From assembly GCF_006345805.1 (NCBI RefSeq), contig NC_043014.1:37944001-38008000 (forward strand): a DNA stretch of 64,000 bases. Direction: 5' to 3'. This DNA is from Octopus sinensis. Its lineage: Eukaryota. Below are positions 36,801 to 64,000 of the stretch, piece after piece. Position 1 is the stretch's first letter. Each line of letters begins with the position of its first letter. The position numbers are program-made.

Positions 36801-39800
36801 GTCAGGACCGGTACATATCATGAACTTAAAAGATAAACATATATAGGAAATACCTAGATGTGGAGTAAAAACAGGATAGTATTATTATGACATCATACGC
36901 GAAATTAGCGATGGTGCTTAGTTTATGCATTTCTTTTTCTGCTTTTTAAAAAATTTTCTTTTTTACAAATTTTTGTCTCTGCGACGTGGTACAGTGAACA
37001 TAACTAATTTTACAACACGTTATCCCAAGTACAGTAGTAACATCACATATTCTGGTGATGTGCAAATTGTAGTGGAGTCTCAGCGCGCCTCTTGCTAATC
37101 GTGAAAATTGCTATCATATTCCCATCTTTTTTCTCCCCGACTTTCGCTACATTTGCCACAATGTTGCAAATCTCTTTTCAGACATATCGTCGTTGGGGGT
37201 CGACGTAATTATGGCATCAAAAGCGACAAAGTCAACATCAAAGTCTCTGAATCAAACATTGGAAATTTGAGAAATAAATAAGCTACATACAATAAATATC
37301 TGTTAACAACAGACGTGATGTGCGTGAAACTTTATTGATCGCTGTAAAATGATCAAAATGTTCATGTTACAACCATCTTTCATTCCTATGCACCTGTGCC
37401 AAAAATAACAGCATGTCACCATAACTTAATCTTCCTTCTCTTTTTTTTTGGTTTTTTTTTTTGATTATTTGGTTTTTACCCTCCCAAAATCGCAATATAA
37501 ATTAAAAGTGTCAACAACTGCTTTGGTTTGTTTTTCGTTTCTTTCATCTCTTATTTTTCACATCTCTTATTTTTCACATATATATTATACTAGCAGTATC
37601 GCCCGCGTTGCTCAGGTTTGTAAGGGAAATAATTATAAGCATTTTTAGAGAGTTATAGCCAAAAAATAGCAAAAAAATGGAAAAAAAATGATGGTAAATT
37701 TTTTTTGAGAGTTAAAAAGGTGGAGTTGCGTCCCCTAGACGGTCTGTGGTTTGGGTTTCTGATTCTCGACCCCATGTCGAATTTATCGATCTTTTTCAGA
37801 ACTGGGGGAACTTTTCAAATTTTTCTCTGCGTTAGTTTTGAATTATGACATTGGGCTATGTGTGTATCAAGTTTCATCAGAATCGGTTGAAAGCCGTGGT
37901 CAGGGTGAGGGTACGAGAAAACAGACACACAGAAAACGCACAGACAAACTGCCGTTTATATAGAGAGAGATATATCATTTTCTGTTGCACGCTGAGCTGC
38001 CGTTCGTTGTTGGCTATATGCACGGCGTGCATTTCTTTGACATTAATTTTCTGTTGCACGCTGACCTGCCTTTCTTTGTTGGCTATCTGCACGTCGTGTC
38101 TTTGGCTGTAAGTTTCTGTTGCACGTCGAGCTGCCGTTTTTGTTGGCTAACTAGACGTCGTGCATTTCTTTGGCATTTATTTTCTGTTGCACGAGGACCT
38201 GACTTTCTTTGTTGGCTATCTGCACGTCGTGCATTACTTTCACTTTCATTTTCTGTTGCACAACAAGCTGTCCTTCTTTGTTGGCTATTTACACGTAGTG
38301 AATTCCTTTGATTTTCATTTTCTGTTGCACACCGAGCTGCCTTTCTTTGTTGGCTATCTACACCTCGTGCATTACTTTGAATTTCATTTTCTGCTGCAAG
38401 TCTATTTGCCTTTGTTGGCTATCTACACATCGTGTATTACTTTGGCTTTATTTCCTGTTTCACATCGAGCTGCCGTTCTTTGTTGGCTATCTACACGTCA
38501 TGCATTCCATTGATTTTCATTTTCTGTTGCACGCTGAGCTGCTGTTCGTTGTTGGCTATCTACACGGCGTGCATTTCTTTGGCATTCGTTTTCTGTTGCA
38601 CGCTTACCTGCCTTTCTTCCTTTGTTGGCTATCTACAAGACGTGCATTACTTTGACTTTAATTTTCTGTTGCACGAGGAGTTGCAGTTCATTTTTGGCTA
38701 TCTACACGTCGTGCATTCCATTGATTTTCATTTTCTCTTGCACGCTGAGCTGCCGTTCGTTTTTGGCAATCTACACGGCGTGCATTTCTTTGCCATTCAT
38801 TTTTTGTTGCACGCTGACCTGCCTTTCTTTGTTGGCTATAAACACGTTGTGCAAAACTTTGACTTTCATTTTCTGTTGCACGAAAAGCTGCTGTTCTTTG
38901 TTGGCTATCTACACGACGTGTATTTCTTTGATTTTCATTTTCTGTAGCACGAGGATATGCCATTGATTGTTGGCTATCTACACGATGTGCATTCCTTTGA
39001 TTTTCATTTTCTGTTGCACGCCGAACTACCGTACGTTGTTGGCTATGTACATGTCGTGCATTTCTTTGGCATTCATTTTCTGTTGCACGAGAGTCTGCTG
39101 TTCTTTGTTGGCTATCTACACGACGTGCATTCCTTTCATTTTCATTTTCTGTAGACGAGGAGTTGCCGTTCATTGTTGGCTATCTACACGTGGTGCATTC
39201 CTTTGATTTTCATTGTCTGTTGCACGACGTGCTTCATTCTTTGTTGGCTATCAACACGACGTGCATTCCTTGCATTTTCATTTTCTGTAGCACGAGGAGT
39301 TGCTGTTCATTTTTGGATATCTACACGTCGTGAATTCCTTTGATTTTCAATTTTGTTGCACGCTGAGCTGCCGTTCGTTCTTGGCTATCTACACGGCGTG
39401 CATTTCTTTGTTGGCTATCTACACGGCATGCATTTATTTGACTTCCATTTTGTGTTGCACGGTGACCTGCCTTTCTTTGCCTGCTATCTACACGGCGTGC
39501 ATTTCTTTGGCATTCGCTTCCTGTTGCACGATGACCTGCCTTTCTTTGTTTGGTATCTACACGGCGTGCATTTCTTTGGCATTGATTTTCTGTTGCACGC
39601 TAGCCTGCCTTTTCTTCGTCGGCTATCTACACGTCGTGCAATACTTTGACTTTCATTTTCTGTAGCACGAGCAGATGCTGTTCATTTTTGGCTACATACA
39701 CATCGTGCAATCCATTGATTTTCATTTTCTATTGGACGCTAAGCTGCCGTTCTTTGTTGGCTATCTACACGACGTGCATTCCTGTGATTTTCATTTTCTA

Positions 39801-42800
39801 TAGCACGAGGAGTTGCTGTTCATTGTTGGCTATCTACACGTCGTGCACTCTTTTAATTTTCATTATTTGCTGCAAGTCGAGATGCCGTTCTTCGTTGGCT
39901 ATCTACATGTCGTGCATTTCTTTGGCTTTCACTTCCTACTATACGTCGAGCTGCCGTTCTTTGTTGGCTAACAACACGGCGTGCATTACTTTGACATTCA
40001 TTTTCTGTTGCACAACAAGCTGCTGTACTTTGTTGGCTATCTACACGCCGTGCATTCCATTGATTTTCATTTTCTGTTGCACGCTGAGCTGCCGTTCGTT
40101 GTTGGCTATATACACGGCGTGCTTTTCTTTTGCATTAGTTTTCTGTTGCACGATGACCTGACTTTCTTTGTTGGCTATCTACACGCCGTGCATTCCATTG
40201 ATTTTCATTTTCTGTTGCACGCTGAGCTGCCGTTCGTTGTTGGCTATATACACGGCGTGCTTTTTGTTTTGCATTAGTTTTCTGTTGCACGATGACCTGA
40301 CTTTCTTTGTTGGCTATCTACACGACATGCATTCCTTTGATTTTCATTTTCTGTAGCACGAGGAGTAGCTGTTCATTTTTGGATATCTACACGTCGTGAA
40401 TTACTTTGATTTTCAATTTTGTTGAACGCTGAGCTGCCCTTCGTTCTTGGCAATCTACACGGCGTGCATTTCATTGGCATTCATTTTCTGTAATACGCCG
40501 AACTGCCTTTCTTTGTCGGCTATCTACACGGCATGCATTTATTTGGCTTTTATTTTGTGTTGTACGATGACCTGCCTTTCTTTGCCTGCTATCTACACGG
40601 CGTGCATTTCTTAGGCATTCGCTTCCTATTGCACGATGTCTTGCCTTACTTTGTTGGCTATCTACACGGCGTGCATTTCTTTGGCATTCATTTTCTGATG
40701 CACGCTGGCCTGCCTTTCTTCGTTGGCTATCTACACGTCATGCAATACTTTGACTTTAATTTTCTGTAGCACGAGCAGTTGCTGTTCATTTTTGGCTAAC
40801 TACACGTCGTGCTTGTCTTTGACTTACATTTTCTGCTGCAAATCATGCTGCCGTTCTTCGTTGGCTATCTACACGTCGTGTATTTCTTTGGCTTTCATTT
40901 CCTTCGTCACGTCAAGCTGCCGTTCTTTGTTGGCTAACAACACGGCGTGCATTTCTTTGGCAAACATTTTTTGTTGCACGACGTGCTTCAGTTCTTTGTT
41001 GGCTATCTACACGACGTGCATTTCTTTGGCTTTCATTTCCTTCGTCACGTCGAGCTGCCGTTCTTTGTTTTGCTATCTACTCGTCGTTTATTCCTTTGAT
41101 TTTCATTTTCTGTTGCACGCTGAGCTGCCGTTCAGTATTAGCTATCTACACGGCGTGCATTTTTTTGGCATTCATTTCCTGTAGTACGCTGAACTACCTT
41201 TCTTATTTGGCTATCTACACGACGTGCATTTATTTGGCATTATTTTTCTGTTGCACGATGTTGCCTTTCTTTGTTGGCAATCTACACGGCATGCATATAT
41301 TTGACTTTCACTTTGTGTTGCACGGTGACTTGCCTTTCTTTGCCTGCTATCTACACGGCGTGCATTTCTTTGGCATTCGCTTCCTGTTGCACGATGACCT
41401 GCCTTTCTTTGTTGGCTATTTACACGACGGGCATTTCTTTGGCATTGATTTTCTGTTGCACGCTAGCCTACCTTTTCTTCGTTGGCTATCTACACGTCGT
41501 GCAATACTTTGACTTTCATTTTCTGTAGCACGAGCAGTTGCTGTTCATTTTTGGCTATCTACACGTCGTGCATTCCATTTATTTTAATTTTCTGTTGCAC
41601 GAGGAGTAGCCGTTCATTGTTGGCTATCTACACGTCGTGCACTCTTTTGGTTCTCATTTTCTGCTCCAAGTACAGCTGCCGTTCATCGTTGGCTATCTAC
41701 ACGTCGTGCATTTCTTTGGCTTTCATTTCCTTCGTCACGTCAAGCTGCCGTTCTTTGTTGGCTAACAACACGGCGTGCATTTCTTTGGCAAACATTTTTT
41801 GTTGCACGACGTGCTTCAGTTCTTTGTTGGCTATCTACACGACGTGCATTTCTTGGCTTTCATTTCCTTCGTCACGTCGAGCTGCCGTTCTTTGTTTTGC
41901 TATCTACTCGTCGTTTATTCCTTTGATTTTCATTTTCTGTTGCACGCTGAGCTGCCGTTCAGTATTAGCTATCTACACGGCGTGCATTTTTTTGGCATTC
42001 ATTTCCTGTAGTACGCTGAACTACCTTTCTTATTTGGCTATCTACACGACGTGCATTTATTTGGCATTATTTTTCTGTTGCACGATGTTGCCTTTCTTTG
42101 TTGGCAATCTACACGGCATGCATATATTTGACTTTCACTTTGTGTTGCACGGTGACTTGCCTTTCTTTGCCTGCTATCTACACGGCGTGCATTTCTTTGG
42201 CATTCGCTTCCTGTTGCACGATGACCTGCCTTTCTTTGTTGGCTATTTACACGACGGGCATTTCTTTGGCATTGATTTTCTGTTGCACGCTAGCCTGCCT
42301 TTCTTCGTTGGCTATCTACACGTCGTGCAATACTTTGACTTTCATTTTCTGTAGCACGAGCAGTTGCTGTTCATTTTTGGCTATCTACACGTCGTGCATT
42401 CCATTTATTTTAATTTTCTGTTGCACGAGGAGTAGCCGTTCATTGTTGGCTATCTACACGTCGTGCAATCTTTTGGTTTTCATTTTCTGCTCCAAGTACA
42501 GCTGCCGTTCATCGTTGGCTATCTACATGTCGTGCATTTCTTTGGCATTCATGTTCTGGTGCACGCTGACCAGCCTTTCTTTGTTGGCTATCTACACGTT
42601 GTGCAATACTTTGACTTCCATTTTCTGTTGCACGACAAGATTCTGTTCATTTTTGGCTATATGCCCGTCTTGCTATACTTTGACTTTCCTGTTCTCTTAC
42701 ACGACAAGCTGCTGTTCTTTGTTGGGTATCTACACGACATGCGTTTCTTCGGCAAACATCTTTTGTTGCACGACGTGCTTCAGTTCTTTATTGGCTATCT

Positions 42801-63800: not shown

Positions 63801-64000
63801 TTTTGTTGCACGACGAGCTGTCGTTCTTTGTTGACTATTTATACGTCGTGCATTTCATTGGCTTTCATTTTCTGTTGCACGACGAGCTGTCGTTCTTTGT
63901 TGACTATTTATACGTCGTGCATTTCATTGGCTTTCATTTTTTGTTGCACGACGAGCTGTCGTTCTTTGTTGACTATTTATACGTCGTGCATTTCATTGGC

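What the first reader, a model, noticed from the sequence alone, without database searches (positions are those of the whole stretch)
37975..64000. Layered 69-bp satellite resembling a centromere or heterochromatin edge
Seen: diverged monomers (38.0-40.8 kb), higher-order repeats (40.9-51.2 kb), diverged monomers again (51.2-55.7 kb), then a homogeneous array to the window end. Known: primate alpha-satellite shows young homogeneous cores flanked by older diverged layers. Inference: this is the margin of a large, actively homogenised array and a candidate centromeric satellite. I do not recognise it as a described family.
Basis: partly seen in the sequence, partly recalled or inferred. Interest (0 to 1): 0.75.

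Follow-up and report, generated by a model that had tools for sequence, protein, structure and literature searches.

The report
Layered 69-bp satellite array edge
This is the real edge of a long tandem array of a 69-base repeat, probably in an octopus-like genome, with old decayed copies outside and a freshly amplified uniform block inside; it is an ordinary kind of satellite DNA, and whether it marks a centromere cannot be told from this window.

Summary
From 37,975 to the window end there are 380 head-to-tail 69-bp monomers, all on the + strand. They form four layers:
- Diverged monomers at 37,975-40,837.
- A domain of nested low-copy higher-order repeats at 40,838-51,241. Two monomer classes build 2-3-mers, then an 11-mer, then a 46-mer of 3.1 kb, whose copies differ by about 1% in substitutions.
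- Diverged monomers without higher order at 51,242-55,751.
- A homogeneous monomeric block at 55,752-64,000.

The homogeneous block is a distinct variant with five fixed changes. It begins within a single monomer step and in register. It differs from its consensus by 0.8% in substitutions. Most of its apparent divergence is 1-bp indels at T-runs, which look like long-read noise.

The flank holds only transposon debris and microsatellites. The best named relatives of one transposon ORF are from the octopod Argonauta hians.

The reading "margin of an actively homogenised array" is supported. "Centromeric" is untestable here and not favoured over other heterochromatin. I found no description of this repeat in print (eight searches). 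It is a new member of a known kind, of moderate-to-low interest.

The parts
37975..40837 (+). Layer 1: diverged 69-bp monomers, starting at the left junction of the array with unique DNA
   Evidence: TRF period 69 from 37,975. The first profile hit is at 37,985. There are 40 monomers to 40,650, with identity 0.72-0.75 at lags 1-12. The junction was read. The 1.5 kb upstream matches nothing else in the flank.
40838..44343 (+). Layer 2a: diverged monomers with a 12/13-monomer block present twice and scattered 4-8-monomer duplicated blocks
   Evidence: A 13-monomer diagonal at lag 12 links 40,838-41,742 to 41,674-42,568 with identity 0.98. Aligned, the copies show 882 matches, 11 substitutions and 7 gaps.
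44344..51241 (+). Layer 2b: nested higher-order domain. Two monomer classes are arranged as (T-C-C)x3 + T-C, which makes an 11-mer of about 755 bp present about 2.6 times. This sits inside a 46-monomer unit of about 3.1 kb that is present twice (44,823-47,926 and 47,994-51,103).
   Evidence: Diagonals at lags 11, 22, 35, 46 and 57. The 46-mer copies align with 3,062 matches, 30 substitutions and 25 gaps. The 11-mer copies align with 737 matches, 6 substitutions and 16 gaps. The T class has 37 monomers, with identity 0.856 within the class and 0.665 to the others.
51242..55751 (+). Layer 3: diverged monomers with no higher-order structure, the most diverged stretch (53.4-54.5 kb)
   Evidence: 66 monomers with identity 0.67-0.69 at all lags from 1 to 12. 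Identity falls to 0.62-0.63 at 53.4-54.4 kb. No diagonal run of 4 or more monomers reaches 0.88.
55752..64000 (+). Layer H: homogeneous monomeric block of a distinct variant, running off the window end
   Evidence: 121 monomers. Five diagnostic columns are held by at least 98% of them and by at most 5% of the 259 older monomers. The score steps from 0-1 to 5 of 5 at one monomer. Substitutions against the consensus are 0.82% and indels 2.5%, the indels falling mostly at T-runs. There is no higher-order pattern.
38485..38497 (+). Example of the conserved core box GGCTATCTACACG (monomer columns 28-40) of the older monomers
   Evidence: Columns 27-40 are 92-99% conserved in the older monomers, except the C at column 30 at 81%. 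Whole monomers are only about 70% alike. The box occurs 221 times with at most 1 mismatch, all on the + strand.
55779..55791 (+). Same box in the H variant, GACTATTTATACG. Three of the five variant-defining changes fall inside it.
   Evidence: Read. The diagnostic columns are 29, 34 and 37.
55790..55830 (+). Example of the 9-bp inverted repeat (CGTCGTGCA, then 23 nt, then TGCACGACG) that spans each monomer junction in layer H
   Evidence: A DNA fold of 60,001-60,207 gives one such hairpin per monomer, with z = -4.73 and 0 of 200 shuffles folding as well. In the older monomers a mean of only 5.75 of 9 positions are complementary.
20735..22110 (-). Flank: frameshifted non-LTR retrotransposon reverse-transcriptase remnant (context, and the source of the taxon hint)
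   Evidence: RVT_1 at 7.2e-27. The best named relatives are from Argonauta hians, at 62% and 59% identity.
32612..33196 (-). Flank: mariner-type transposase remnant (context)
   Evidence: Transposase_1 at 1.8e-12 and 7.5e-08.

Best explanation
The region is one edge of a block of non-coding satellite DNA, a 69-bp monomer in one orientation, in a genome that looks octopod.

Shown:
- The outer 17.8 kb consists of old monomers that are about 68-73% alike. They still share a strongly conserved core of about 14-30 bp.
- Inside this, a domain built from two interleaved monomer classes has been copied recently in ever larger registers: 2-3 monomers, then 11, then 46.
- The inner 8.2 kb is a separate variant carrying five fixed changes. 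It is almost free of substitutions and begins in register at a single monomer.

Inferred:
- The array turns over by out-of-register recombination between repeats (unequal sister-chromatid exchange, or break-induced or slipped replication). The register length sets whether monomers or multi-monomer units are copied.
- The inner block arose by a saltatory amplification of one founder monomer. It did not arise by gradual conversion of its neighbours.
- The same turnover purges transposon insertions.

Its cellular role is most likely packaging as constitutive heterochromatin. I put a location at or next to a centromere at about 0.35-0.4. That is the likeliest single location but is unproven. I put actual kinetochore (CENP-A) binding at about 0.25.
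For: - Tandem structure and single orientation.
- Layers and nested units.
- Distinct variant and step boundary: five columns are held by at least 98% of 121 monomers against at most 5% of 259, stepping from 0-1 to 5 of 5 at 55,752. The junction was read in register.
- Recent origin: 67 substitutions in 8,192 bases, 31 of them at one polymorphic column.
- True adjacency of the layers: the two older monomers most like the H consensus lie just left of the junction, at 55,418 (0.87) and 55,683 (0.86).
- Non-coding: 31 of 31 open frames of 150 or more codons are on the T-rich strand. The translations hop between frames. Only 36 of 120 H-layer monomers are exactly 69 bp long. There are 0 protein relatives.
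- Purging of insertions: a SINE-like element of about 430 bp has 13 loci in the 38-kb flank and 0 in the 26-kb array. By my arithmetic about 6 would be expected in the old layers, and the Poisson P of none is about 0.002.
- Heterochromatin-like setting: of 124 flank ORFs, only reverse transcriptase and mariner domains pass Pfam cut-offs.
- Prior for location: C-bands lie mostly at centromeres, but also at terminal and interstitial sites, in three octopods (PMC6160780; abstract and passages read).
Against: - Nothing here measures chromatin, copy number or chromosomal position.
- Only one array edge is seen, so 'large' is not shown.
- The recombination mechanisms are inferred from pattern alone.
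- The indel excess in layer H (146 deletions and 58 insertions, concentrated at T-runs) suggests this part of the assembly is noisy. Its length and fine structure may therefore be unreliable.
- The taxon rests on one transposon ORF. A second ORF found no relatives.
- The dyad symmetry is clear only in the young variant. In old monomers the excess over shuffled partners is small (z = 2.5 within a monomer, -1.5 across the junction), and duplicated blocks inflate it.
- The SINE deficit assumes equal target preference and age.
Confidence: 0.8

Rival explanations
1. It is the functional centromere satellite. The homogeneous variant block is the CENP-A-bound core, and the outer layers are dead former cores pushed aside, as in primate alpha-satellite.
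For: - Layered old and young structure with a very young inner block.
- Single orientation over 26 kb.
- A perfect 9-bp dyad in every young monomer, folding far better than shuffles. An association of dyad symmetry with centromeres is recalled from the literature and was not checked here.
- A gene-free flank full of transposon debris.
- Octopod C-bands are mostly centromeric (PMC6160780).
Against: - All these features also occur in non-centromeric satellites.
- The core is monomeric, not a higher-order array.
- There is no age gradient, since the most diverged layer touches the core.
- There are no transposons in the old layers.
- No match to the CENP-B box pattern, which I recalled from memory (0 matches).
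- No occupancy or position data exist.
Confidence: 0.25
2. It is a heterochromatic satellite block away from the centromere (subtelomeric or interstitial), with no role in segregation.
For: - Terminal and interstitial C-bands exist in octopods (PMC6160780).
- The layered turnover pattern is generic to tandem arrays.
- A 69-bp unit is short for a typical centromeric satellite. This rests on general knowledge; the 100-400 bp range is quoted in the abstract of PMC5844345, seen in the listing.
- A short telomere-like tract lies 13.5 kb away, at 24,406-24,429.
Against: - The telomere-like tract has only about 3.7 units and is embedded in unique DNA, so it is not a chromosome end.
- Most octopod C-bands are centromeric.
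- Nothing in the window positions it on a chromosome.
Confidence: 0.35
3. The homogeneous block, or its junction at 55,752, is an assembly artefact: a collapsed or over-extended repeat, or a chimeric join of two arrays.
For: - A step-like boundary.
- Deletion-biased 1-bp indels at homopolymers (146 deletions against 58 insertions), typical of unpolished long reads.
- The window ends inside the block.
Against: - The junction keeps the monomer register.
- The older monomers most like the young variant sit immediately beside the junction.
- Similar indel noise occurs between the duplicated units of layer 2, so the noise is not special to the block.
- The five variant changes are consistent across 121 monomers.
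Confidence: 0.1
4. It is a tandem array carried by, or grown out of, a transposable element, as with the Helitron- or MITE-linked satellites recalled from bivalve molluscs.
For: Molluscan satellites are often linked to mobile elements (recalled, not checked). The flank is dense with transposon remnants.
Against: - No monomer-like sequence occurs anywhere in the 38-kb flank.
- The 1.5 kb next to the array is unique within the window and has no Pfam domain.
- The array is at least 26 kb long, far beyond element-borne arrays.
Confidence: 0.05

Closest known systems
Primate alpha-satellite centromere arrays (homogeneous core flanked by diverged monomeric layers)
   Same: - Head-to-tail monomers in one orientation.
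- A very young homogeneous inner block, with diverged monomers outside it.
- A domain in which two monomer classes alternate and form multi-monomer units that are copied as blocks.
   Different: - The monomer is 69 bp, not about 171 bp.
- The homogeneous block is monomeric, while the higher-order units lie in an outer layer and have only 2-3 copies.
- There is no distance-age gradient, and the boundary is a step.
- No transposon insertions lie in the old layers.
- There is no CENP-B box, tested with a motif recalled from memory.
- There is no sequence relationship.
Generic animal satellite DNA evolving by unequal exchange and saltatory amplification ('library' behaviour of variants)
   Same: Variant monomers coexist in one array. 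One variant has been amplified abruptly, and multi-monomer registers have been duplicated. The array is non-coding, strand-asymmetric and free of interruptions.
   Different: Nothing essential differs, and this is the class it belongs to. The particular monomer matched nothing I could search.
Bivalve mollusc satellites linked to mobile elements
   Same: The host phylum is Mollusca, if the octopod assignment holds.
   Different: There are no element termini and no dispersed short arrays in the window. The array is long and continuous.

Membership tests
Satellite DNA (tandem non-coding repeat block) | Head-to-tail monomers of one family forming a long uninterrupted array | tested here: met
   380 monomers, all on the + strand, spanning 26 kb. 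The largest non-matching gap is 74 bp.
Satellite DNA (tandem non-coding repeat block) | Non-coding | tested here: met
   Only 36 of 120 H-layer monomers are exactly 69 bp long. Translations change frame. There were 0 hits among 8,000 scored candidates and 0 in 1.84 billion representatives.
Satellite DNA (tandem non-coding repeat block) | High genomic copy number, with arrays at heterochromatic sites | not testable with these tools
   No eukaryotic genome, read set or chromatin data was available. Only one locus is visible.
Functional centromeric satellite | Occupied by the centromeric histone (CENP-A/CenH3) | not testable with these tools
   This needs ChIP or CUT&Tag.
Functional centromeric satellite | Present at the primary constriction of all or most chromosomes | not testable with these tools
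   This needs the whole assembly or FISH. The only related evidence is that octopod C-bands are mostly centromeric (PMC6160780).
Alpha-satellite-like layered centromere architecture | Homogeneous core made of many copies of a multi-monomer higher-order unit | tested here: not met
   Layer H shows equal identity at lags 1-6. 93 of the 120 monomers are distinct, with no periodic type pattern. The one common variant site shows no trend (rho -0.06, p 0.52).
Alpha-satellite-like layered centromere architecture | Diverged monomeric layers flanking the core | tested here: met
   Layers 1 and 3.
Alpha-satellite-like layered centromere architecture | Divergence increasing with distance from the core | tested here: not met
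   The lowest identity (0.62-0.63) is at 53.4-54.4 kb, next to the core. The outermost layer has 0.73.
Alpha-satellite-like layered centromere architecture | CENP-B box in a subset of monomers | tested here: not met
   The degenerate box pattern, recalled from memory, gave 0 matches in the window. It is unknown whether octopods have a CENP-B protein at all.
Transposon-borne tandem array | Array bounded by element termini, with short copies dispersed along with the element | tested here: not met
   There are no monomer hits in the 38-kb flank. The adjacent 1.5 kb is unique in the window. Only the left end and one window could be examined.
Any curated RNA family or tRNA-derived array | Match to an Rfam model or a tRNA | tested here: not met
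   0 Rfam matches at gathering score and 0 tRNAs.

The most novel reading that the evidence does not exclude
The homogeneous variant block is the active kinetochore-binding core of an octopod centromere, which would be the first cephalopod centromere sequence. The strongly conserved 13-nt box of the old monomers would be the former docking site of a sequence-specific centromere or heterochromatin protein. The young variant changed three of its bases and gained a perfect 9-bp dyad. It would then be a new 'allele' of the centromere that has just swept the array, the kind of replacement expected under centromere drive.
Probability: 0.2. Interest if true: 0.6.

Novelty: new member of a known kind. 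Interest (0 to 1): 0.35.

Why it matters
Cephalopod centromeres and satellites are essentially undescribed in the literature I could search. The main cephalopod repeat survey discarded unknown and simple repeats (PMC8967140, passages read), and no paper on octopus satellite DNA turned up.

A well-mapped array edge gives concrete probes: two variant-specific boxes, plus a class-specific box in the higher-order domain. These could be used for FISH and CENP-A mapping in octopods, and as a marker for judging how well assemblies resolve heterochromatin.

In itself, though, it behaves as a textbook satellite, and nothing in its anatomy calls for a new mechanism.

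Tried and rejected
- **Coding repeat.** 69 = 3 x 23 and the T-rich strand has long open frames (31 of 31 frames of 150 or more codons are on +). Rejected because frames shift with indels, monomer lengths vary and no protein relatives exist.
- **Relatives through protein space.** I translated a 295-aa array frame and searched. There were 0 hits among 8,000 scored candidates of 162-517 aa and 0 among 1.84 billion representatives. This route gives no information on other species.
- **Ancient 34-35-bp half-monomer duplication.** The best half-versus-half alignment was reached by 18 of 300 shuffles, so this is not supported.
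- **Selection for the hairpin in old monomers.** A mean of 5.75 of 9 positions pair, against 5.65 for shuffled partners within a monomer (3 of 1,000 shuffles reach it). Across the junction the value is 5.59, which is below the shuffled mean. One column pair (8/41) switches A-T to C-G within monomers, but this follows the monomer classes and duplicated blocks. Inconclusive.
- **Gradient inside layer H at the common T/C site (column 67).** None found.
- **Telomere proximity.** Only one tract of about 3.7 units, at 24,406-24,429.
- **CENP-B-box-like motif (recalled).** 0 matches.
- **Rfam and tRNA.** Nothing.
- **Prokaryotic genome scan with a 22-nt core pattern.** One isolated match turned up in a 57% G+C Kofleriaceae MAG contig, with no array around it. 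About 0.3 matches are expected by chance by my arithmetic, so I rejected it as chance.
- **Second taxon marker (ORF 12,707-13,330).** No relatives.
- **Literature.** Eight searches found no description of the repeat. One search looked for the box sequences as text and found 0 papers.

Not checked:
- Repbase or Dfam.
- Supplements of cephalopod genome papers.
- Any eukaryotic nucleotide collection, as none was on hand.
- The closed metagenome and viral collections, which are unlikely to matter here.

Full report
**Observation**

Tandem Repeats Finder reports a 69-bp period without a break from 37,975 to the last base of the window. The composition changes at the same point. G+C rises from about 0.32-0.39 to 0.42-0.44. 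AT skew drops to between -0.39 and -0.51, so the + strand is T-rich. The window has no N.

I built a profile from 148 monomers delimited by a conserved 7-nt anchor. It recovered 380 monomers at E<1e-3. All are on the + strand and they tile 37,985-64,000. The largest unmatched gap is 74 bp, at 44,270-44,343, and it is a local 16-18-bp micro-repeat. The only hit outside the array had E=2.8. The array is therefore real, oriented, uninterrupted and cut off by the window end.

**Layers**

I computed monomer-by-monomer identities on the profile alignment.

- **Layer 1 (37,975-40,837).** Diverged monomers, with identity 0.72-0.75 at every lag.
- **Layer 2 (40,838-51,241).** Monomers that are equally diverged from their neighbours (0.68-0.71) but organised in recently copied multi-monomer units.
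  - A 12/13-monomer block is present twice.
  - An 11-monomer unit of about 755 bp is present about 2.6 times.
  - The stretch containing the 11-mer forms a 46-monomer unit of about 3.1 kb, present twice (44,823-47,926 and 47,994-51,103).
- **Layer 3 (51,242-55,751).** Diverged monomers with no higher-order signal. Identity is 0.67-0.69 at all lags and falls to 0.62 at 53.4-54.4 kb.
- **Layer H (55,752-64,000).** Homogeneous monomers, with identity 0.90-0.95 at every lag.

Base-level alignment of the copied units in layer 2 gave the following:

| Unit | Matches | Substitutions | Gaps |
|---|---|---|---|
| 46-mer | 3,062 | 30 | 25 |
| 12-mer | 882 | 11 | 7 |
| 11-mer | 737 | 6 | 16 |

That is about 1% substitution divergence. 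The 'higher-order repeats' are real, but they are nested, few-copy duplications and not a long array of one unit.

The 11-mer has an inner grammar. A monomer class marked by T at the third base of the core box is confined to 42.7-51.2 kb and has 37 monomers. Identity is 0.856 within the class and 0.665 to the other monomers, and at least eight columns are diagnostic. This class alternates with one or two monomers of the common class, as (T-C-C)x3 + T-C.

**The homogeneous block**

Five alignment columns separate layer H from everything else: 16 C>T, 29 G>A, 34 C>T, 37 C>T and 52 T>A. The H states are held by at least 98% of its 121 monomers and by at most 5% of the 259 older ones. The per-monomer score goes from 0-1 to 5 of 5 at the single monomer that starts at 55,752. 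The junction keeps the monomer register. The two older monomers most like the H consensus lie just to its left, at 55,418 (0.87) and 55,683 (0.86).

Against their own consensus, the 120 tiled H monomers show 67 substitutions in 8,192 bases (0.82%). Of these, 31 fall at one T/C site. They also show 146 deleted and 58 inserted bases, concentrated at T-runs. Only 36 of the 120 monomers are exactly 69 bp long.

I read the indel excess as long-read homopolymer noise. This is an inference. It means the block is more uniform than the 92% that TRF reports, and that this stretch of the assembly should be trusted less for length.

Layer H has no higher-order unit and no trend at its common variant site.

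**Monomer anatomy**

In the older monomers, conservation is very uneven. Columns 27-40, which contain the box GGCTATCTACACG, are 92-99% conserved, except the C at column 30, which is 81%. Columns 19-48 are mostly above 85%. Columns 1-18 and 55-69 run at 40-85%. The box with at most 1 mismatch occurs 221 times, all on + and all in the array.

Three of the five H-defining changes fall inside this box, giving GACTATTTATACG.

Each H monomer junction carries a perfect 9-bp inverted repeat with a 23-nt spacer. Three H monomers folded as single-stranded DNA give one hairpin each, with z = -4.73 and 0 of 200 shuffles folding as well. In the older monomers the dyad is only partly kept, with 5.75 of 9 positions complementary. 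The excess over shuffled partners is small and confounded by relatedness.

CpG is not depleted. Observed over expected is 1.08-1.20 in the old layers and 1.82 in H, against 0.83 in the flank.

A proposed origin from a 34-35-bp half-unit is not supported, since 18 of 300 shuffles reach the observed score.

**Not coding**

Long open frames exist only on the T-rich strand (31 of 31 frames of 150 or more codons). I attribute this to the low A content of that strand. The translations switch frame every few monomers. A 295-aa translation found no relative among 8,000 scored candidates or in 1.84 billion cluster representatives. Rfam and tRNA scans are empty.

**Surroundings and organism**

The 38-kb flank is packed with microsatellites. 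It also holds a SINE-like element of about 430 bp with an internal AC/AT microsatellite, at 13 loci.

I tested 124 stop-to-stop ORFs of 60 or more codons, chosen from 248 by an amino-acid entropy filter. Only a reverse transcriptase and a mariner transposase passed Pfam cut-offs. Short exons would be missed by this test.

The reverse-transcriptase-associated ORF has its best named relatives in the octopod Argonauta hians, at 62% and 59% identity. Unnamed records score higher, at 66-71%. A second ORF found nothing. The window is therefore probably from an octopod, on thin evidence.

The SINE-like element has no copy in the 26-kb array. At the flank's density I would expect about 6 copies in the old layers, and the Poisson P of none is about 0.002 (my arithmetic). 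This suggests that turnover removes insertions or that the array is a poor target.

**How it most likely works**

The pattern is what repeated out-of-register recombination or replication restart in a tandem array produces. Short registers give monomer-level amplification, and long registers give 11-mer and 46-mer duplications.

Layer H has a step boundary, five fixed differences and near-zero substitution load. This points to one founder monomer amplified abruptly, not to gradual conversion of its neighbours. These mechanisms are inferred from the pattern and were not observed.

**Centromere or not**

Nothing in one window can place the array on a chromosome or show kinetochore binding. C-banding in three octopods puts heterochromatin mostly at centromeres, but also at terminal and interstitial sites (PMC6160780; abstract and passages read).

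Set against the alpha-satellite model:
- The monomeric layers are present.
- The homogeneous core is not a higher-order array.
- Divergence does not grow with distance from the core.
- The boundary is a step.
- No transposons sit in the old layers.
- A CENP-B-box pattern, recalled from memory, is absent.

I therefore keep '(peri)centromeric' as the likeliest single location, at about 0.35-0.4, and not as a finding.

**Novelty**

Eight literature searches found no description of this repeat or of any octopus satellite. One of them searched for the box sequences as text. For most listed papers I saw only the search listing and the start of the abstract. I read passages from four:
- PMC13218726, which notes that centromere labelling in cephalopods is still wanting.
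- PMC6160780.
- PMC9957312.
- PMC8967140, which discarded unknown and simple repeats from its cephalopod repeat survey.

'Undescribed' therefore means only 'not found in these searches'.

A scan of prokaryotic genomes gave one isolated chance match.

**Verdict**

This is a genuine, neatly layered satellite array edge. It is a new member of a well-known kind. It is useful as a lead for cephalopod centromere work, but nothing about its mechanism is surprising.

Noticed in passing
window 360-36,176 (13 loci, e.g. 2,856-3,283 +, 622-1,034 -, 31,360-31,752 -): A dispersed SINE-like element of about 430 bp that carries an internal (AC)n(AT)n microsatellite. One end looks tRNA-like, which is my reading of the sequence. 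Copies are 75-94% alike, and many of the window's microsatellites sit inside them.
   Followed up: partly
window 24,406-24,429: A short interstitial telomere-like tract of about 3.7 units of the vertebrate-type hexamer. It is embedded in unique sequence 13.5 kb from the array.
   Followed up: partly
window 55,752-64,000: 1-bp indels are deletion-biased and concentrated at T-runs (146 deleted against 58 inserted bases in 8.2 kb). This suggests unpolished long-read sequence in the homogeneous block. Similar 1-bp gaps occur between the duplicated units at 44.8-51.1 kb.
   Followed up: partly
window 12,707-14,066 (-) and 16,692-17,878 (-): ORFs of 104-215 codons with no Pfam match. The first also found no protein relatives in the 'longer' search. 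They are probably remnants of uncharacterised mobile elements.
   Followed up: partly
window 37,975-55,751: CpG dinucleotides inside the conserved core of the old monomers (columns 39-40 and 42-43) are kept in 84-96% of copies, although the monomers overall are about 30% diverged. CpG observed over expected exceeds 1 throughout the array, against 0.83 in the flank.
   Followed up: no
window 5,771-6,082 and 7,756-8,070: A pair of direct repeats of about 315 bp at 91% identity, 2 kb apart in the flank. They are not related to the SINE-like family listed above.
   Followed up: no
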